NCBI GenBank assembly: GCA_964615425.1
Contig: CAZTOB010000001.1
Coordinates: forward strand, 6,369-56,186
Direction of reading: 5' to 3'
DNA from: an uncultured Candidatus Saccharibacteria bacterium
GTDB lineage: Bacteria > Patescibacteriota > Minisyncoccia > Minisyncoccales > CAYTKG01
DNA length: 49,818 nucleotides
Position 1 is the stretch's first letter; the number at the start of each line of letters is the position of its first letter. The notes below the pieces were generated by a model. It was not told where the DNA came from. It saw only the letters and a list, made by a program, of their open reading frames with translations, and did no database searches. This document shows, one piece after another, positions 6,377 through 44,755 of the stretch. The position numbers and the translations under genes are program-made.

Positions 6377-6459
6377 GCCGCGGTGGTGAAATTGGCAAAC
6401 ACGCATGGTTTAGGACCATGTGCCTTCTTGGCTTGTGGGTTCGAGTCCCACCCGCGGCA
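6377..6459 (+). tRNA. tRNA-Leu (anticodon TAG), long variable arm, CCA not encoded
   Basis: The acceptor is gccgcgg/ccgcggc. The anticodon stem catgg/ccatg carries loop tt-TAG-ga. The T arm is gtggg-ttcgagt-cccac, and the variable arm is tgccttcttggcttgt. Confidence 0.9.
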
Positions 6460-8838: not shown

Positions 8839-8913
8839 GACCCCATCGTCTAGTCCGGTCTAGGACATCAGGTTTTCATCCTGACAACCCGGGTTCGAAT
8901 CCCGGTGGGGTCG
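8839..8913 (+). tRNA. tRNA-Glu (anticodon TTC), CCA not encoded
   Basis: The acceptor is gacccca/tggggtc. The anticodon stem tcagg/cctga carries loop tt-TTC-at. The T arm is ccggg-ttcgaat-cccgg. Confidence 0.9.
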
Positions 8914-13577: not shown

Positions 13578-13654
13578 TGGTGCGCCCAGCAGGACTTGAA
13601 CCTGCACTTTTCGGCTCCGCAAGCCGACGTTTTTTCCAATTAAACTATGGGCGC
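13578..13654 (-). tRNA. tRNA-Arg (anticodon GCG), CCA encoded
   Basis: The reverse complement folds as follows: acceptor gcgccca/tgggcgc, D stem gttt/aaac, anticodon stem tcggc/gccga with loop tt-GCG-ga. The T arm is gcagg-ttcaagt-cctgc, then discriminator A and CCA. Confidence 0.85.
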
Positions 13655-13758: not shown

Positions 13759-13842
13759 GGAGGAGTCGCATAATGGTATTGCAATGGCTTGCTAAGCCAT
13801 GACGGTTTATCCGTCCTGCGGGTTCAAATCCCGCCTCCTCCG
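13759..13842 (+). tRNA. tRNA-Ser (anticodon GCT), CCA not encoded
   Basis: The acceptor is ggaggag/ctcctcc. The anticodon stem atggc/gccat carries loop tt-GCT-aa. It has a long variable arm (gacggtttatccgtcc) and T arm gcggg-ttcaaat-cccgc. Confidence 0.85.
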
Positions 13843-13849
13843 CATTTAC

Positions 13850-13933
13850 GGTGGGCTGCGCCGAATTGGCAAGGCACCGGTTTTGAAAACCGGCGGGCTT
13901 CGGCCCTTACAGGTTCAAGTCCTGTGCCCACCG
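13850..13933 (+). tRNA. tRNA-Ser (anticodon TGA), CCA not encoded
   Basis: The acceptor is ggtgggc/gcccacc. The anticodon stem ccggt/accgg carries loop tt-TGA-aa. It has a long variable arm (cgggcttcggccc) and T arm acagg-ttcaagt-cctgt. Confidence 0.85.
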
Positions 13934-32991: not shown

Positions 32992-33008
32992 ATTAAAAAA
33001 TTAGGTTG

Positions 33009-33355
33009 TGGAGATGGGGAGATTGAACTCCCGTCCAAAACTTTCGCGAGCGTGTTTCTACAAGCTTAGTCCATTTGTTTTTTTCAAGAAACCGAGTAGT
33101 AAATGGACAAAATCTTCGATTTCTTTATCCCTTTTGTTTCGAAAGATTTGCTGGGAAGACAAACCTTTCTATCCCAATATATGATGCCGGATCTTGACTA
33201 TTGAGAATCGTCAAGGCGGCACTACCCTTAAGCGTAAGCTAGGGCAGGTTCGAAATCAAAGTTGGCATTTGTTTGCCTTCCAGGTTTTTGATCAGTTTCC
33301 TGGAAACTGAGCTTGCGGCATTCTCACAATAAGTTTTGTCGATGCATGCATCCCC
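33009..33355 (-). ncRNA. ssrA: tmRNA (SsrA), about 347 nt, CCA not encoded
   Basis: On the minus strand the 5' end is ggggatgcatgcatcgac and the 3' end is ggacgggagttcaatctccccatctcca. The acceptor ggggatg/catctcc contains a G3:U70 pair (alanine identity). An internal frame GCC AAC TTT GAT TTC GAA CCT GCC CTA GCT TAC GCT TAA encodes ANFDFEPALAYA. The gene sits directly downstream of smpB. Confidence 0.8.
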
Positions 33356-41754: not shown

Positions 41755-42069
41755 ATGTTTTTACCTATATTAATTGCTGGGTTTGGAGGGGGAGTGGTAA
41801 GAGGGTTAGTGGGATTTATAAAACACCAGTTTTCCTACAAGAATGTGGGCTTTAACCTTCCTTATTTTTTCTCCATGTGTTTTCTTTCAGGGGTGGTCGG
41901 GGTTTTAGTTGCTGGTGCCGGGGAGAGTTTGGGCATGCGTTTTTTTGGAGGAACTTTTACTCCAGCCCTTGCTTTTTTTATCGGTTACGCAGGCGGTGAT
42001 TTCGTGGAAAACGTGGTTAAAATCATTCTCAAAAGACCGGAGCTTTATTCTTTTAAGAAAAAAATCTAA
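41755..42069 (+). CDS. Small glycine-rich multi-pass membrane protein (start trimmed to ATG 41755)
   Basis: Three hydrophobic segments carry GxxxG-type motifs (IAGFGGGVVRGLVGF, VVGVLVAGAG, FFIGYAGGDF). The upstream part of the track ORF overlaps the glyQS 3' end. Confidence 0.5.
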   Translation: MFLPILIAGFGGGVVRGLVGFIKHQFSYKNVGFNLPYFFSMCFLSGVVGVLVAGAGESLGMRFFGGTFTPALAFFIGYAGGDFVENVVKIILKRPELYSFKKKI

Positions 42070-42071
42070 AT

Positions 42072-42245
42072 ATGAGTGGAATAGTTATTCTTTTACTGGG
42101 AATTTTTTTGGTGCTTATTGTTTTTTATCTTAAATCCCAGGGGGCGAGCCTGATTGACGCTATAACGATAGTACTTTTTTATATCTTTTTGATTTGGTTT
42201 TTCTTGACTCAGTTTCCTCTTTCTGAAGGGAACAACTTTTTTTAA
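42072..42245 (+). CDS. Unlisted 57-codon ORF encoding a two-helix membrane micro-protein
   Basis: ATG 42072 to TAA 42243-42245 encodes MSGIVILLLGIFLVLIVFYLKSQGASLIDAITIVLFYIFLIWFFLTQFPLSEGNNFF. It starts 2 nt after the previous stop and ends 1 nt before the next ATG. It falls below the track cutoff. Confidence 0.4.
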   Translation: MSGIVILLLGIFLVLIVFYLKSQGASLIDAITIVLFYIFLIWFFLTQFPLSEGNNFF

Positions 42246-42246
42246 T

Positions 42247-42795
42247 ATGAAAAACAAAAGACTAAAGATTTCTCTTTTTTTATCCTTGTTGGCGTTTTTA
42301 ATTCCTGCTGTTTTAGGTTTTTTGTGGGGCGGGAGTGACGCGGCCCGGGAGGTTCTTTTCATTACCGACAAGCTTTTTTCTATGGTAGCTCCTATTGAGC
42401 CATTCAACCTCTTTGTTTTTTTGTTGTTTTTAGATTTTTTACTCTTGTCTTTTTTTGCTCTTTCTTCTTTTTTCCTTTCCCTGCCCTCTCTTTTTTATTT
42501 GTCTTTTTATTCTTTTTTGATTGGAGCGGCGGTTCGGATTTCGGGGGTTGGTCTAGTTTTTTTTCTGCTTTTTCCTTTTTCAGTTTTTAAAATTTTTCCT
42601 TTGATCTTGGCTACCTTTTTTTGCCTACAGTTTTCAGGAGCTTTAGTTCTAGAATTATTTTCGGATGAATTTTCTTTTCCTAAAAAGGAAGCGAAGGTTT
42701 TTTTAAAAAAAATTGTTTTACTTTTTCCTCTCTTTTCCTTTTTTAGTTTTCTTGAAGTTTGGGGAATTCCTTTTGTCTTTCGTTTTTTTACTTGA
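42247..42795 (+). CDS. Hypothetical multi-pass membrane protein (Phe/Leu-rich)
   Basis: The 182-aa ORF has five or six hydrophobic segments. I recognised no motif. Confidence 0.5.
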   Translation: MKNKRLKISLFLSLLAFLIPAVLGFLWGGSDAAREVLFITDKLFSMVAPIEPFNLFVFLLFLDFLLLSFFALSSFFLSLPSLFYLSFYSFLIGAAVRISGVGLVFFLLFPFSVFKIFPLILATFFCLQFSGALVLELFSDEFSFPKKEAKVFLKKIVLLFPLFSFFSFLEVWGIPFVFRFFT

Positions 42796-42819
42796 CAAAA
42801 AACTTTATTTTTTTAAAAT
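42792..42819 (+). promoter_or_regulatory. Near-consensus sigma70-type promoter (TTGACA - 16 nt - TAAAAT) reading into the micro-ORF region
   Basis: ttgaca at 42792-42797 overlaps the upstream TGA stop. taaaat is at 42814-42819. Confidence 0.4.
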
Positions 42820-42837
42820 GAAGGAAATAAAGATTTC

Positions 42838-42936
42838 ATGAGCTCAAGATTAATTACAATTCAACTCTTTCTTGTCACATGGTTTATTAACCTTGTGCCT
42901 TTTGGAGGGTTGAAAAGTAATCTTGAATTAAGCTAA
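42838..42936 (+). CDS. Candidate 32-codon hydrophobic mini-ORF (leader peptide or small membrane peptide)
   Basis: The ATG at 42838 is preceded by gaaggaaa. It encodes MSSRLITIQLFLVTWFINLVPFGGLKSNLELS and runs through the 5' arm of the proposed antiterminator. Confidence 0.25.
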   Translation: MSSRLITIQLFLVTWFINLVPFGGLKSNLELS

Positions 42937-43026
42937 CGAAAAAATTTGAGAATACCTTTCAGCCCTTCCATCGGAGGGGCTGATTTGTTTTTTTGTTCCT
43001 TAGCTCTTTTAAAGGAGGTGAGATAC
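42904..43026 (+). promoter_or_regulatory. Leader copy A: antiterminator arm, terminator hairpin, U-run and strong SD
   Basis: ggagggttgaaaag (42904-42917) can pair with cctttcagcccttcc (42955-42969). That segment alternatively forms the hairpin agcccttcc-atc-ggaggggct (42961-42981), followed by gatttgttttttt. AAGGAGGTGA lies at 43012-43021. Confidence 0.5.
42961..42994 (+). terminator. Terminator-like hairpin of leader copy A
   Basis: A 9-bp stem (one G:U) with a triloop is followed by GATTTGTTTTTTT. Confidence 0.5.
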
Positions 43027-43152
43027 ATGAGTGGGCTCAGGGAGAGGATTGTTTGTCCCGACTGCGGCAGGGTCTACTGCGGAGAAATATGTCCGCAGTG
43101 CGGGCAGACAAAGGAGGAGGCGGCTCAGTCCGCTTCAAAGAAGGGGAGTTGA
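43027..43152 (+). CDS. 41-aa zinc-ribbon micro-protein (two CPxCG knuckles)
   Basis: The ATG lies 5 nt after AAGGAGGTGA. It encodes MSGLRERIVCPDCGRVYCGEICPQCGQTKEEAAQSASKKGS. CPDCG...CPQCG is the classic rubredoxin-type zinc-ribbon signature. Confidence 0.6.
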   Translation: MSGLRERIVCPDCGRVYCGEICPQCGQTKEEAAQSASKKGS

Positions 43153-43168
43153 CTTTTTTCCCCTTAAG

Positions 43169-43196
43169 GGGCGGAGAAGATTAATCTTCTCCGCCC
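43169..43196 (+). other. Perfect 12-bp GC-rich hairpin without a U-tract after the zinc-ribbon ORF
   Basis: ggcggagaaga-ttaa-tcttctccgcc(c) is followed by aaatcaatc. It may be a stability or processing element rather than a canonical terminator. Confidence 0.4.
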
Positions 43197-43210
43197 AAAT
43201 CAATCTAAAA

Positions 43211-43303
43211 ATGAATTTGTTTGAAATAAAAAAATTAGTTAATTTTTTCTTCATCCTTCTTATTGAAGGTCTCTTTATCGTTTTTTTGTTCCGGGAGGGT
43301 TGA
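43211..43303 (+). CDS. Candidate 30-codon hydrophobic mini-ORF (leader peptide or small membrane peptide)
   Basis: ATG 43211 to TGA 43301-43303 encodes MNLFEIKKLVNFFFILLIEGLFIVFLFREG. The stop codon lies inside the 5' arm (ggagggTTGAagaa) of the copy-B antiterminator. Confidence 0.25.
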   Translation: MNLFEIKKLVNFFFILLIEGLFIVFLFREG

Positions 43304-43410
43304 AGAATGGTTTTAAATAAATAAAAACAACTTAAGGTTATTCTTCGGCCCTTCCATCGGAAGGGCTGATTTGTTTTTTGTTCCTTAGTTTCTTAAAGGA
43401 GGTGAGAAGG
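43294..43410 (+). promoter_or_regulatory. Leader copy B: antiterminator arm, terminator hairpin, U-run and strong SD
   Basis: ggagggttgaagaa (43294-43307) can pair with ttcttcggcccttcc (43341-43355). That segment alternatively forms ggcccttcc-atc-ggaagggct (43347-43367), followed by gatttgtttttt. AAGGAGGTGA lies at 43396-43405. Confidence 0.5.
43347..43379 (+). terminator. Terminator-like hairpin of leader copy B
   Basis: A 9-bp stem with the same ATC triloop is followed by GATTTGTTTTTT. Confidence 0.5.
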
Positions 43411-43521
43411 ATGTTCAAGATCATGGTGCCTAAGAAGAAAAAGGAGAAGAAGAAAAAGGAAGAGAATTCTTCCAAGAAAGTTTCTTCTCCTACACCTAAG
43501 GGGGTTAATATCTCTCCTTAG
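43411..43521 (+). CDS. Candidate 36-aa lysine-rich micro-protein
   Basis: The ATG lies 5 nt after AAGGAGGTGA. It encodes MFKIMVPKKKKEKKKKEENSSKKVSSPTPKGVNISP and is followed by a strong terminator. Confidence 0.4.
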   Translation: MFKIMVPKKKKEKKKKEENSSKKVSSPTPKGVNISP

Positions 43522-43537
43522 GAAAGCTCTTTTACGA

Positions 43538-43566
43538 GAAGGGGGAAGCCCCCCTTCTTTTTTATT
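43538..43566 (+). terminator. Intrinsic terminator closing the micro-ORF region
   Basis: gaaggggg-aagc-cccccttc is followed by ttttttattt. Confidence 0.75.
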
Positions 43567-43578
43567 TGATGATTTTTT

Positions 43579-43587
43579 TGGTAAAAT
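43579..43587 (+). promoter_or_regulatory. Extended -10 box TGGTAAAAT upstream of the permease gene
   Basis: tggtaaaat ends 17 nt before the ATG at 43604. Confidence 0.3.
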
Positions 43588-43603
43588 TAGACAGAGTGAA
43601 AAA

Positions 43604-44755
43604 ATGAAAGTGTTTAAAAAAATATTTGAAAATAAAAAGTGGAAAGCGGTTGCTACTTTGGTGGGAACAACCATAGGGGCCGGGATGTTCGGCCTCCCTT
43701 ATGTTGTAGTCAGGGTTGGTTTTCCATTAGGCTTTCTTTACCTTCTTTTTTTAGGAGGAGTTGTTTTGTTTTTAAACCTTGCTTACGGGGAGGTGATACT
43801 TAGAACGCCGGGAGATCATCAGTTCAGTGGTTATTTAAATTTTTATTTAAAGCCGAAGGAGCATATTTTACGTTTCGCCGAGCTGGTCAGTTTTTTCATC
43901 TCTGCCTATGGAGCTCTTCTTGCTTACCTGGTTAAGGTGGGGGATTTTTCAGTTCTTCTTTTCGGAAGAAGGGGTCCTGATTTTTACAGCTTGTTGTTTT
44001 TTGCTTTGGCGGCTGTTGCTCTTCATTTTGGATTGCGGTGGGTTTCTTTTTTTGACTTTATGGCGGTTTTTTTAATTTTTTTAGTTTTAGGAGGCCTTTT
44101 TATTTTTAACTTTTCACATATTAATCCGGAGATTTTAAAAAAGATTGATTTCGGGTTTTTCTTTTTACCCTACGGAGTTATTTTATTTGCTTTAAACGGG
44201 AGTTCGGTTATTCCTGAGATGGAAGAGGTTTTAAGAAAAAAACATGGAAAATTAAAAAGCGCCGTAGTGATAGGGACACTGATCCCTCTTGTTGTTTATT
44301 TTGTTTTCGTTGGTTTAGTGGGAGGAATCTGCGGAGAAAGTGTTTCTCCCGACTCCGTTTCCTGCCTGCCCGGCATTCTTCCTTCTTGGGCGGTCAGCCT
44401 TACTGCTTTTTTAGGAATTTTGACTATGAGCAGTTCTTTTGTAAGTTTTTCTTATGTTTTAAGAGAGCGTTGGCATCGGGATTACAAGTTTCCTAAATTT
44501 TGGTCTTTTGTTTTGGTTCTTTTTCCTCCTCTTGCTCTTTTCTTCTTGGGGGTCAGGGATTTTTTGGGAATAATAGAGTTTAGTGGGGCTGTTTCAATCG
44601 GGCTGATCGGAATTCTTATTCTTCTTATGCACAAAAGAGCCAAGTCGCTGGGCAAAAGAGAGCCGGTTTACAAACTAAAAATCCCTTTAAAGGTTCGTTG
44701 GCTGCTTGTTTTTGTTTTTATAAGTGGGGCGGTTCTTTCTTTACTTTTTAATTAA
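43604..44755 (+). CDS. Amino-acid permease-like transporter (about 11 TM helices)
   Basis: The N-terminal KWKAVATLVGTTIGAGMFGLPYVV is typical of amino-acid/aromatic amino-acid permease families. The protein is hydrophobic throughout. Confidence 0.55.
   Translation: MKVFKKIFENKKWKAVATLVGTTIGAGMFGLPYVVVRVGFPLGFLYLLFLGGVVLFLNLAYGEVILRTPGDHQFSGYLNFYLKPKEHILRFAELVSFFISAYGALLAYLVKVGDFSVLLFGRRGPDFYSLLFFALAAVALHFGLRWVSFFDFMAVFLIFLVLGGLFIFNFSHINPEILKKIDFGFFFLPYGVILFALNGSSVIPEMEEVLRKKHGKLKSAVVIGTLIPLVVYFVFVGLVGGICGESVSPDSVSCLPGILPSWAVSLTAFLGILTMSSSFVSFSYVLRERWHRDYKFPKFWSFVLVLFPPLALFFLGVRDFLGIIEFSGAVSIGLIGILILLMHKRAKSLGKREPVYKLKIPLKVRWLLVFVFISGAVLSLLFN

What the first reader, a model, noticed from the sequence alone, without database searches (positions are those of the whole stretch)
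42904..42994. Terminator/antiterminator alternative pairing with compensatory changes between two copies: an attenuator- or riboswitch-like platform of unknown input
In copy A, ggagggttgaaaag (42904-42917) can pair with cctttcagcccttcc (42955-42969), with T42966 bulged. The 3' part of that segment is also the 5' arm of the terminator-like hairpin 42961-42981, which is followed by a U-run. The two helices are therefore mutually exclusive. Copy B (43294-43307 versus 43341-43355; hairpin 43347-43367) keeps the same architecture while the sequences differ. Two antiterminator pairs change on both strands: A42915:T42957 becomes G43305:C43343, and G42917:C42955 becomes A43307:T43341. The copy-A mismatch A42916/C42956 becomes an A:T pair in copy B. 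In the terminator stem, T42966:G42976 becomes T43352:A43362. The ~35-nt loops between the arms are not conserved. Structure preserved through double substitutions is the signature of a functional RNA switch. I do not recognise it as a known riboswitch, T-box, or ribosomal-protein or amino-acid leader.
Basis: seen in the sequence. Interest (0 to 1): 0.7.

Follow-up and report, generated by a model that had tools for sequence, protein, structure and literature searches.

The report
Leader-peptide transcription attenuators before small genes
The two repeated terminator/antiterminator structures are real and conserved, and they look like classical leader-peptide attenuators, in which a ribosome translating a short upstream reading frame decides whether transcription continues; this family, from candidate-phyla-radiation (CPR) bacteria, matches no Rfam family and controls tiny genes of unknown function.

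Summary
Both copies (42904-42994 and 43294-43380) fold into a hairpin of about 25 bp. Its 3' arm contains the 5' arm of a terminator hairpin followed by a U-run.

I found 19 full copies in 8 related CPR genomes or strains and no Rfam match. Substitutions preserve both helices: 84% and 78% of cells are paired, and 0 of 500 shuffles reach the observed values.

The "unknown input" is most likely a ribosome.
- In 13 of 16 copies an ATG reading frame of 21-51 codons starts shortly after a sigma-70-like promoter. It runs into the 5' arm and stops in that arm or in the loop (2.9 copies expected by chance).
- In 10 of 14 copies a segment inside this frame is complementary to the 5' arm.

This is the four-segment layout (1:2 and 3:4 versus 2:3) of the trp/phe/leu/ilv attenuators and of B. 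subtilis bmrB.

The controlled genes are mostly orphan small proteins with strong Shine-Dalgarno (SD) sequences, arranged in tandem arrays. What stalls the ribosome is not settled: the candidates are hydrophobic amino-acid supply and general translation speed. Nothing has been tested experimentally.

Verdict: a new member of a known kind, moderately interesting.

The parts
42792..42819 (+). Sigma-70-like promoter of unit A (TTGACA, 16 nt, TAAAAT)
   Evidence: Matches 11 of 12 consensus positions. The -10 box ends 18 nt before the leader ATG. Equivalent promoters lie 9-20 nt before the leader ATG in 10 of 15 units.
42838..42936 (+). Leader ORF A, 32 codons (MSSRLITIQLFLVTWFINLVPFGGLKSNLELS*). 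It has no SD, and its stop codon lies in the apical loop of the long hairpin.
   Evidence: The orthologue in L001 keeps the frame and changes the stop from TAA to TGA.
42853..42871 (+). Region 1 of unit A. It lies inside the leader ORF (codons 6-12) and is complementary to the 5' arm. The core UUCAACUCUUU is at 42860-42870.
   Evidence: Folding the full leader gives 1:2 pairing together with the terminator (MFE -67.5 kcal/mol, z -5.6). The duplex energy is -14.1 kcal/mol, reached by 4% of shuffles.
42903..42929 (+). Region 2 of unit A, the 5' arm of the antiterminator hairpin. The conserved box is GGAGGGTTGAA. It also encodes the C-terminal GGLKS of the leader peptide.
42943..42969 (+). Region 3 of unit A, the 3' arm of the antiterminator. 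Its proximal part (42959-42969) is the 5' arm of the terminator.
42959..42994 (+). Terminator hairpin of unit A (regions 3:4; 42959-42983, 11 pairs, 7 of them G-C) with its U-run (42984-42994).
43014..43152 (+). SD (GGAGG, 43014-18) and small ORF A (43027-43152), a 41-aa zinc-ribbon-like protein with CPxC...CPxC.
   Evidence: The L001 orthologue keeps all Cys codons and shows 8 synonymous and 8 non-synonymous codon changes.
43211..43303 (+). Leader ORF B, 30 codons (MNLFEIKKLVNFFFILLIEGLFIVFLFREG*). Its stop codon is the TGA inside the 5' arm box.
   Evidence: No own promoter was found, so it is probably read through from unit A.
43246..43262 (+). Region 1 of unit B (UUUCUUCAUCCUUCUUA; leader codons 12-18, FFFILLI), complementary to the 5' arm.
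   Evidence: Duplex energy -17.4 kcal/mol, reached by 0.3% of shuffles.
43293..43316 (+). Region 2 of unit B, the 5' arm of a perfect 24-bp antiterminator.
43332..43355 (+). Region 3 of unit B, the 3' arm of the antiterminator. Positions 43345-43355 are the terminator 5' arm.
43345..43380 (+). Terminator hairpin of unit B (43345-43369) with its U-run.
43398..43521 (+). SD (GGAGG, 43398-402) and small ORF B (43411-43521), a 36-aa Lys-rich protein.
   Evidence: The orthologue on L005 differs by in-frame indels and third-position changes, read from the sequence.
43536..43566 (+). Strong intrinsic terminator that closes the two-unit array.
   Evidence: 10 pairs followed by TTTTATTT.

Best explanation
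Each copy is a ribosome-dependent (leader-peptide) transcription attenuator of the four-segment trp/phe/leu/ilv type.

**Layout.** A sigma-70-like promoter starts a transcript whose first feature is an SD-less leader ORF of 21-51 codons.
- Region 1 lies inside that ORF, at about codons 6-18, which are mostly Leu, Phe and Ile codons.
- Region 2 is the conserved box GGAGGGUUGAAGAAU at the 3' end of the ORF.
- Region 3 is AUUCUUCAGCCCUCC.
- Region 4 is GGAGGGC followed by a U-run.

Region 1 can pair with region 2. Region 2 can alternatively pair with region 3 in a long antiterminator of about 25 bp. Region 3 can alternatively pair with region 4 as an intrinsic terminator.

**Inferred logic.**
- A ribosome that runs unhindered to the leader stop codon, which lies in region 2 or in the apical loop, masks region 2. 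Then 3:4 forms and transcription stops before the SD-led downstream gene.
- A ribosome held up on region 1 leaves region 2 free. Then 2:3 forms and RNA polymerase reads through.

**Shown and inferred.** The sequence shows the three conserved, covarying helices, the conserved reading frame and its stop position, the promoters, and that the downstream ORFs code for protein. The direction of control is inferred. So is the signal, which could be Leu/Phe/Ile-tRNA supply or general translation speed. So is the default state when no ribosome is present.
For: **Antiterminator.**
- All 15 copies tested fold into the long hairpin.
- On a structure-blind MAFFT alignment of 16 copies, 84% of cells are paired and 20 of 27 pairs change on both sides. 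No shuffle out of 500 reaches this, and sliding the partner columns drops pairing to 37-58%.

**Terminator.**
- With the 5' arm masked, a terminator hairpin with a U-run forms in 13 of 15 copies.
- 78% of cells are paired and 9 of 12 pairs change on both sides, with 0 of 500 shuffles reaching the cells-paired and covariation scores.

**Cognate arms.** Each copy's own arms pair better than arms swapped between copies. The values are -26.7 against -19.2 kcal/mol for the antiterminator and -16.1 against -11.8 for the terminator, with 0 of 20000 permutations as good.

**Leader ORF.**
- 13 of 16 copies have an ATG ORF of at least 20 codons that ends in the 5' arm or loop. Dinucleotide shuffles predict 2.9, and no simulation out of 200000 reached 13.
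- The stop is kept as TAA to TGA between orthologues.
- Leader ORFs are 92-96% identical between orthologues, against 81-88% for the downstream ORFs.
- Frame-shifted versions (winB, L011_a, L012_1) still stop inside the arm or loop.

**Region 1.**
- In the full-length fold, 42860-70 pairs with 42904-14 while the terminator forms.
- A complementary region 1 is found in 10 of 14 copies at p<=0.043, including the copy whose box has diverged to GGGCGG.
- The Fisher combined p is 2e-7, and only 2 of 50000 permutations match the cognate advantage.

**Context.**
- Promoters end 9-20 nt before the leader ATG in 10 of 15 units.
- A second covariance model finds the element nowhere else in 244 kb of these genomes.
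- The closest experimentally studied analogue is bmrB (PMC4191407, read).
Against: - There is no experimental evidence of any kind: no 3'-end mapping and no proof that the leader ORF is translated.
- The leader ATGs have no SD.
- No single amino acid forms a regulatory run, there is no rare-codon bias, and the controlled genes have no known function. The physiological signal is therefore unknown.
- The 2:3 helix (mean -27 kcal/mol) is far more stable than 1:2 (-15) or 3:4 (-16). Its distal part offers a toehold. Without a ribosome the antiterminator might therefore win, which is not what happens in trp.
- Three of 16 copies lack a long leader ORF (L007_1, L009_2, L017_2).
- Three of 14 copies (L007_1, L011_a, L009_1) have no region 1 better than chance, and L012_1 is borderline (p 0.14).
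- The copies share ancestry, so the shuffle statistics overstate independence.
- Only 8 genomes or strains carry the element. An exact-pattern metagenome scan gave only chance hits.
Confidence: 0.75

Rival explanations
1. This is the first reader's idea: a ribosome-independent switch. A small ligand, a protein, or a trans-acting RNA or tRNA binds the conserved box or the hairpin. That binding shifts the balance between terminator and antiterminator.
For: The box GGAGGGTTGAA is strongly conserved in sequence. No known family matches, so a new aptamer cannot be excluded on that ground. The leader ORFs have no SD.
Against: - The antiterminator is a continuous helix without a conserved bulge or junction.
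- The apical loop is not conserved in sequence and ranges from a few to about 40 nt.
- The terminator loop is replaced wholesale between strains.
- Conservation of the box is explained by its three-way pairing (with regions 1 and 3) plus its coding role.
- The conserved ORF geometry has no role in this model.
- The downstream proteins differ from copy to copy, so autoregulation by a shared product is unlikely.
Confidence: 0.1
2. The upstream ORF is the real gene, encoding a small single-pass membrane protein. The hairpin and terminator are simply its structured 3' end, a leaky terminator that sets operon polarity. On this view they are not a sensor.
For: - 11 of 14 leader peptides have a TM-like hydrophobic stretch (Kyte-Doolittle mean over 17 residues >=1.6) followed by a basic tail.
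- Gene callers annotate some of them as hypothetical proteins (P0121-P0123).
- The ORFs are more conserved than their neighbours, and the hydrophobic core of unit a shows third-position changes.
Against: - Two leaders are not hydrophobic: L011_c (0.16) and L017_1 (-0.40).
- Charged substitutions occur in the would-be TM segment between orthologues (W to R and N to D).
- Frame shifts that change the C-terminus are tolerated, while the nucleotide box is kept.
- A plain terminator does not need a covarying 25-bp competitor helix or a covarying region 1.
- Pyrimidine-rich region 1 forces Phe, Leu and Ser codons, which itself explains much of the hydrophobicity.
- This rival is compatible with a dual-function leader and does not exclude attenuation.
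Confidence: 0.1
3. The feature acts at the DNA level, as an inverted repeat that serves as an operator, a recombination site or a miniature mobile element.
For: The feature is a long, near-perfect inverted repeat. It occurs in several copies clustered in one variable island.
Against: - The helix contains many G.U pairs, which would be C/A mismatches on the other strand.
- The reverse strand scores far lower with the covariance models, for example 37.9 against 96.8 bits.
- The arms differ between copies yet remain complementary, unlike copies of a mobile element.
- There are no matches in viral contigs or in phage records.
Confidence: 0.02

Closest known systems
Classical amino-acid leader-peptide attenuators of Enterobacteria (trpL, pheL, leuL, ilvL/ivbL, hisL, thrL)
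   Same: - Both have four RNA segments that form 1:2 and 3:4, or alternatively 2:3.
- Both have an intrinsic terminator before the first structural gene.
- Both have a short leader ORF that covers region 1 and stops at or after region 2.
- The leader peptide is hydrophobic, rich in Leu, Ile and Phe, as in ilvL, leuL and pheL. That resemblance rests on my own knowledge of those sequences.
   Different: - There is no sequence relationship. Rfam Phe_leader scores only 22.4 and 20.7 bits against a threshold of 55.
- There is no run of one regulatory amino acid.
- The leader is longer (21-51 codons) and has no SD.
- The 2:3 helix is unusually long (about 25 bp) and much more stable than 1:2 or 3:4.
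- The controlled genes are orphan small proteins rather than biosynthetic operons, and in one genome a DUF885 operon.
- The host is a CPR bacterium.
bmrB leader ORF of the Bacillus subtilis bmrBCD operon (PMC4191407), and other translation-sensing leader-ORF attenuators of antibiotic-resistance genes
   Same: - The leader ORF is about 50 codons long.
- Its 3' part holds terminator, antiterminator and anti-antiterminator structures.
- Efficient translation favours termination, and slowed translation favours read-through.
- No amino-acid-specific codon run is needed.
   Different: - In bmrB the terminator lies within the coding region. Here the stop codon precedes region 3.
- No resistance gene (ABC transporter, methylase or ABC-F) lies downstream.
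- Whether antibiotics or any translation stress induce this element is unknown.
Metabolite riboswitches with terminator/antiterminator expression platforms
   Same: Both rely on mutually exclusive terminator and antiterminator helices in a 5' leader.
   Different: There is no aptamer. The element has no conserved multi-helix junction or conserved unpaired nucleotides, and it matches no Rfam family.

Membership tests
Ribosome-mediated leader-peptide transcription attenuator (trp/phe/leu/ilv type) | An intrinsic terminator (G+C-rich hairpin plus U-run) in the 5' leader, upstream of the regulated ORF | tested here: met
   Both window copies are found by the terminator scan. The hairpin with a U-run forms in 13 of 15 copies when the 5' arm is masked. 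The helix covaries.
Ribosome-mediated leader-peptide transcription attenuator (trp/phe/leu/ilv type) | An antiterminator (2:3) that shares a strand with the terminator | tested here: met
   In every copy with a terminator, the terminator 5' arm lies inside the 3' arm of the long hairpin. In L012_1 the overlap is only 5-7 nt.
Ribosome-mediated leader-peptide transcription attenuator (trp/phe/leu/ilv type) | A short leader ORF that covers region 1 and ends at or just after region 2 | tested here: met
   13 of 16 copies, against 2.9 expected. The stop codon lies from -3 to +56 nt relative to the start of the 5' arm. The stop is retained between orthologues.
Ribosome-mediated leader-peptide transcription attenuator (trp/phe/leu/ilv type) | Region 1 within the leader ORF is able to pair with region 2 (protector or pause hairpin) | tested here: met
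   10 of 14 copies at p<=0.043. Fisher combined p is 2e-7, and the cognate advantage is matched by 2 of 50000 permutations. It is no better than chance in L007_1, L011_a and L009_1, and borderline in L012_1 (p 0.14).
Ribosome-mediated leader-peptide transcription attenuator (trp/phe/leu/ilv type) | A run of regulatory codons for the amino acid whose pathway is controlled | tested here: inconclusive
   Phe, Leu and Ile together make up 38.8% of leader residues, against 23.6% in the window's long ORFs. Some copies have local runs (FFYFFF, NFFFILL). There is no single conserved amino acid and no rare-codon bias. The downstream genes are of unknown function.
Ribosome-mediated leader-peptide transcription attenuator (trp/phe/leu/ilv type) | The leader ORF is translated, and its translation changes read-through | not testable with these tools
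   This needs reporters, coupled in-vitro assays, ribosome profiling or Term-seq.
Metabolite riboswitch | A conserved ligand-binding aptamer with a junction or internal loops and invariant unpaired nucleotides | tested here: not met
   The element is a continuous helix. The loop columns of alignment A4 show no conservation, and loop length is variable.
Metabolite riboswitch | A match to a curated riboswitch family | tested here: not met
   No Rfam 15 hit in the region at gathering score. The best sub-threshold hits in the region are generic leader and terminator models, about 26 bits at most and all far below their gathering scores.
Protein- or tRNA-mediated attenuators (PyrR site, T-box, ribosomal-protein leaders) | A match to the family's covariance model | tested here: not met
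   PyrR scores 19.8 and 18.5 bits against a threshold of 54. L20_leader scores 26.2 against 58.7, and that hit lies over ORF B rather than the element. There is no T-box hit.
Antibiotic-responsive leader-ORF attenuators (bmrB type) | A leader ORF of about 50 codons or fewer with alternative structures, placed upstream of a resistance determinant | tested here: not met
   The architecture is similar, but the downstream genes are not resistance genes. The element may work like this family, but it is not a member of it.
Type I toxin-antitoxin | A small hydrophobic peptide together with an overlapping antisense RNA gene | tested here: inconclusive
   The peptides are hydrophobic. No minus-strand promoter-like site was found in 42000-44000. 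A consensus scan is a weak test.

The most novel reading that the evidence does not exclude
The attenuators form a CPR-specific starvation circuit. These bacteria cannot make amino acids and depend on a host. Ribosomes stalling at Leu, Phe or Ile codons of the leader would report a shortage of imported hydrophobic amino acids. That would switch on a variable battery of orphan small proteins (zinc-ribbon, Lys-rich and others), and in one lineage a DUF885 / ATP-grasp amino-acid-ligase operon. The array lies next to an aromatic amino-acid permease. The hydrophobic leader peptides might in addition act as small membrane proteins in their own right.
Probability: 0.2. Interest if true: 0.7.

Novelty: new member of a known kind. 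Interest (0 to 1): 0.5.

Why it matters
- Gene regulation in CPR/Patescibacteria is almost unstudied. Two literature searches found no paper describing an attenuator in this group.
- A conserved leader-peptide attenuator implies that these organisms couple transcription to translation, and that they use the coupling as a sensor.
- It gives a regulatory handle on orphan small proteins. These proteins are probably made only when leader translation falters.
- It provides a covariance model (R2) that can be used to survey CPR genomes.
- It corrects the tempting "new riboswitch" reading of the element.

Tried and rejected
- **Rfam.** The scan at gathering score found nothing in the region. The permissive scan found only weak generic leader and terminator hits.
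- **Genome scan.** An exact-pattern scan for the terminator core gave one real relative, L001.
- **Metagenome scan.** A gapped box1...box3 pattern gave three G+C-rich chance matches (L002-L004), which I discarded.
- **Small ORF A protein search.** No homologue was found.
- **Leader-peptide profile search.** It returned only three proteins. Two are leader ORFs already in hand and one comes from a strain variant.
- **Viral and phage searches.** Both found nothing.
- **Pfam and PHROGs on the downstream small ORFs and the leaders.** No hit reaches a curated threshold.
- **MifM/SecM-type idea**, in which a membrane-insertion-monitoring nascent chain controls the switch. I rejected it by reasoning. 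The peptides have 21-51 residues, so the hydrophobic segment is still inside the ribosome exit tunnel when the ribosome reaches region 2. In addition, no insertase gene lies downstream.
- **SD-plus-AUG mini-ORF inside box 1.** It is present in only 7 of 16 copies, by reading alignment A4, with inconsistent lengths, so I judged it incidental.
- **Control of the permease.** I rejected this. A strong terminator and a separate promoter lie between the array and the permease. In L011 and L021 the element is not adjacent to the permease.
- **Rare-codon sensing.** There is no codon-usage difference from long ORFs.

Full report
**1. Observation**

The region 42796-43603 lies between a membrane-protein gene and a Trp/Tyr-permease-family gene. 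It holds two tandem units that share three sequence blocks:
- GGAGGGTTGAA;
- TTCnGCCCTTCCATCGGArGGGCTGATTTG followed by a T-run and GTTCCTTAG;
- TTAAAGGAGGTGAGA, which directly precedes an ATG.

RNAfold gives the 5'-box/3'-box helix as the minimum-free-energy structure of both copies (-34.4 and -31.8 kcal/mol; z -4.1 and -3.9). The terminator scan finds both hairpins with T-runs. It continues for about 25 bp through sequence that differs between the copies but stays complementary, leaving only a 13-15-nt loop.

**2. Relatives**

No Rfam family matches. A genome scan for the terminator core found one related genome, L001, whose record is labelled "uncultured Candidatus Saccharibacteria bacterium". 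It carries an orthologue of unit A. A gapped-pattern metagenome scan gave only chance hits.

I then used the neighbouring permease as an anchor. Its homologues fall to about 55% identity after one close relative, and I fetched their contigs. A covariance model built from six copies (R1), and later one built from sixteen (R2), found these copies:

| Locus | Copies |
|---|---|
| window | 2 |
| L001 | 1 |
| L007 | 3 |
| L009 | 2 |
| L011 | 3 |
| L012 | 2 |
| L017 | 2 |
| L020 / L021 (two contigs of one locus) | 1 |
| L025 (a strain variant of L011) | 3 |
| L005 | 1 partial |

The models found nothing else in 244 kb of these genomes, and nothing in L010, L013, L014, L022 or L024.

The copies sit in a variable island, usually between an MJ0043_C-family gene and the permease. 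Each is followed, after a strong SD, by a different small ORF of 36-88 aa. In L020/L021 the downstream gene is instead a DUF885 gene. In L011 one copy lies on the opposite strand and the element is not adjacent to the permease. The element therefore goes with the small genes rather than with the permease.

**3. The two helices are selected**

- *Antiterminator.* On a MAFFT alignment made without structural information (A4, 16 copies), 84% of cells are paired and 20 of 27 pairs change on both sides. No shuffle out of 500 reaches this. Sliding the partner columns drops pairing to 37-58%.
- *Terminator.* On alignment A6, 78% of cells are paired and 9 of 12 pairs change on both sides, with 0 of 500 shuffles reaching the cells-paired and covariation scores. 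Slid versions give 37-62%.
- *Arm swapping.* Exchanging arms between copies shows that cognate arms fit best in both helices (0 of 20000 permutations).
- *Masking.* With the 5' arm masked, a terminator with a U-run forms in 13 of 15 copies. In every copy that has a terminator, its 5' arm lies inside the 3' arm of the long hairpin.
- *Strand.* Many pairs are G.U, and the reverse strand scores far lower with the models. The structure therefore belongs to the plus-strand RNA.
- *Diverged copy.* L017_1 has changed all interacting segments together: GGGCGGTTGA, TTGACCGCCC and GGGCGG.

**4. The missing input: a leader reading frame**

In 13 of 16 copies exactly one ATG ORF of 21-51 codons runs into the 5' arm and stops in that arm or in the apical loop. 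Dinucleotide shuffles of the upstream sequence predict 2.9 such copies.

In the window these ORFs are 42838-42936 and 43211-43303. Most read the conserved box as Gly-Gly-Leu-Lys-Asn/Ser. Three copies read the same nucleotides in another frame and still stop inside the hairpin. In one of them, L011_a compared with L025_a, the shift is a 1-nt indel in a G-run. This suggests that translation into the box matters more than the peptide's C-terminus.

Between orthologues:
- the leader stop is kept as TAA to TGA;
- the leader ORF is 92-96% identical at the nucleotide level;
- the downstream ORF is 81-88% identical.

Ten of 15 units have a strong TTGACA-16/18-TAnnnT promoter whose -10 box ends 9-20 nt before the leader ATG, so the leader ORF has a very short 5' UTR with no SD. 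The units without a promoter are the second or third in an array and are probably read through from the unit before.

**5. Region 1**

Folding the whole unit-A leader from the likely transcription start (42826-43035) gives a different minimum-free-energy structure (-67.5 kcal/mol, z -5.6). The box at 42904-42914 pairs with 42860-42870, inside the leader ORF, while the terminator 42959-42983 forms.

A box-complementary segment at leader codons about 6-18, lying 23-63 nt upstream of the box, is found in 10 of 14 copies at p<=0.043. It covaries with the box in the diverged copies. The Fisher combined p is 2e-7, and cognate pairs beat non-cognate pairs in all but 2 of 50000 permutations.

The element therefore has the classical four segments: 1:2 with 3:4, or 2:3.

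**6. Mechanism**

*Shown:*
- three alternative, covarying helices;
- a conserved reading frame that covers region 1 and ends at or after region 2;
- promoters;
- downstream ORFs that code for protein.

The evidence for the last point is that Cys codons are kept and synonymous changes occur in ORF A, and that ORF B differs from its L005 orthologue by in-frame indels.

*Inferred:*
- A ribosome that reaches the leader stop codon masks region 2, so 3:4 forms and transcription terminates.
- A ribosome delayed on region 1 frees region 2, so 2:3 forms and transcription reads through.

*Open:*
- The signal is unknown. The leaders are rich in Phe, Leu and Ile (38.8% against 23.6%), and 11 of 14 look like a transmembrane segment. 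The same is true of E. coli ilvL and leuL (my own knowledge). A pyrimidine-rich region 1 also forces such codons. There is no single regulatory amino acid and no rare-codon bias.
- The default state is unknown. The 2:3 helix is much more stable than 1:2 or 3:4 and has a free distal toehold, so without a ribosome the antiterminator may win.

**7. Comparison with known systems**

In architecture the element resembles the enterobacterial amino-acid attenuators. Among experimentally studied cases, the closest analogue is bmrB of B. subtilis. That is a 53-codon leader ORF containing terminator, antiterminator and anti-antiterminator structures, in which efficient translation favours termination (PMC4191407).

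The element is not a sequence member of any curated family. It fails the riboswitch criteria because it has no aptamer. It also lacks the resistance gene of the bmrB class.

The MifM/SecM-type idea was rejected because the peptides are too short to emerge from the ribosome before the decision point. A DNA-level role was rejected because of the G.U pairs and the strand asymmetry.

**8. Verdict**

The feature is real and conserved. It is a new family of a well-known kind of regulator, found in a lineage where such regulation appears undescribed. It controls orphan small proteins. Its interest is moderate. Interest would rise if the signal proves to be host-derived amino-acid supply, or if the small proteins turn out to have a function.

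Noticed in passing
window 33006-33355 (-); tRNAs at 6377-6459, 8839-8913, 13581-13654 (-), 13759-13842, 13850-13933: A tmRNA gene (114.5 bits) and five tRNA genes lie elsewhere in the window.
   Followed up: no
window 43168-43196: A G+C-rich hairpin (GGGCGGAGAAG-ATTAAT-CTTCTCCGCCC) directly follows small ORF A. It has no U-run on either strand. Unit B has no promoter of its own, so this hairpin probably does not terminate transcription. It may stabilise or process the transcript.
   Followed up: partly
window 43579-43587: An extended -10-like sequence (TGGTAAAAT) lies between the array's final terminator and the permease start at 43604. This suggests that the permease is transcribed independently of the attenuators.
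   Followed up: no
L011 136-2595; L017 6718-9297: The MJ0043_C-family gene next to the island is 819 or 859 aa and has Intein_splicing / LAGLIDADG hits in these two genomes, against 415 aa in L007 and L012. This suggests an intein insertion. No ORF of that size lies at the corresponding position in the window.
   Followed up: no
L009 1951-2144: The 432-aa permease call (P0003) probably carries a false N-terminal extension. A separate small Cys-rich ORF (MKKWLKCWTCH...) with a strong SD follows attenuator L009_2 in another frame.
   Followed up: partly
L009 1717-1934; L017 9417-9592: In two genomes a full unit (leader ORF plus attenuator) is followed immediately by a second attenuator copy that has no long leader ORF. 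The second copy also lacks a U-run (L009_2) or a clear terminator hairpin (L017_2). Only then comes the SD-led gene. The role of this tandem arrangement is unexplained.
   Followed up: partly
L021 788-2534 (= L020 677-2423): Here the attenuator directly precedes a 543-aa DUF885 gene whose ATG lies about 13 nt after the terminator, with no SD. Downstream are a methyltransferase and an ATP-grasp gene with an L-amino-acid-ligase C-terminal domain (LAL_C2). This is the only copy tied to genes that may act in amino-acid metabolism.
   Followed up: partly
window 42995-43003 and 43381-43389; also L007, L011 and L025 copies: A conserved GTTC(C/T)TT motif right after the terminator can pair with the AAAGGAG of the downstream SD, forming a weak local hairpin in the folds. 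This might add a translational layer of control.
   Followed up: no
L007 5234-5383 and L012 6788-6934; L011 5212-5424 and 4438-4644 (-): Some of the attenuator-controlled small proteins form small families. One shares the motif DRDEYV.K.HR. Another shares CPLC...C.EID..DS.SKR. No family in Pfam or PHROGs reaches a curated threshold for them.
   Followed up: partly
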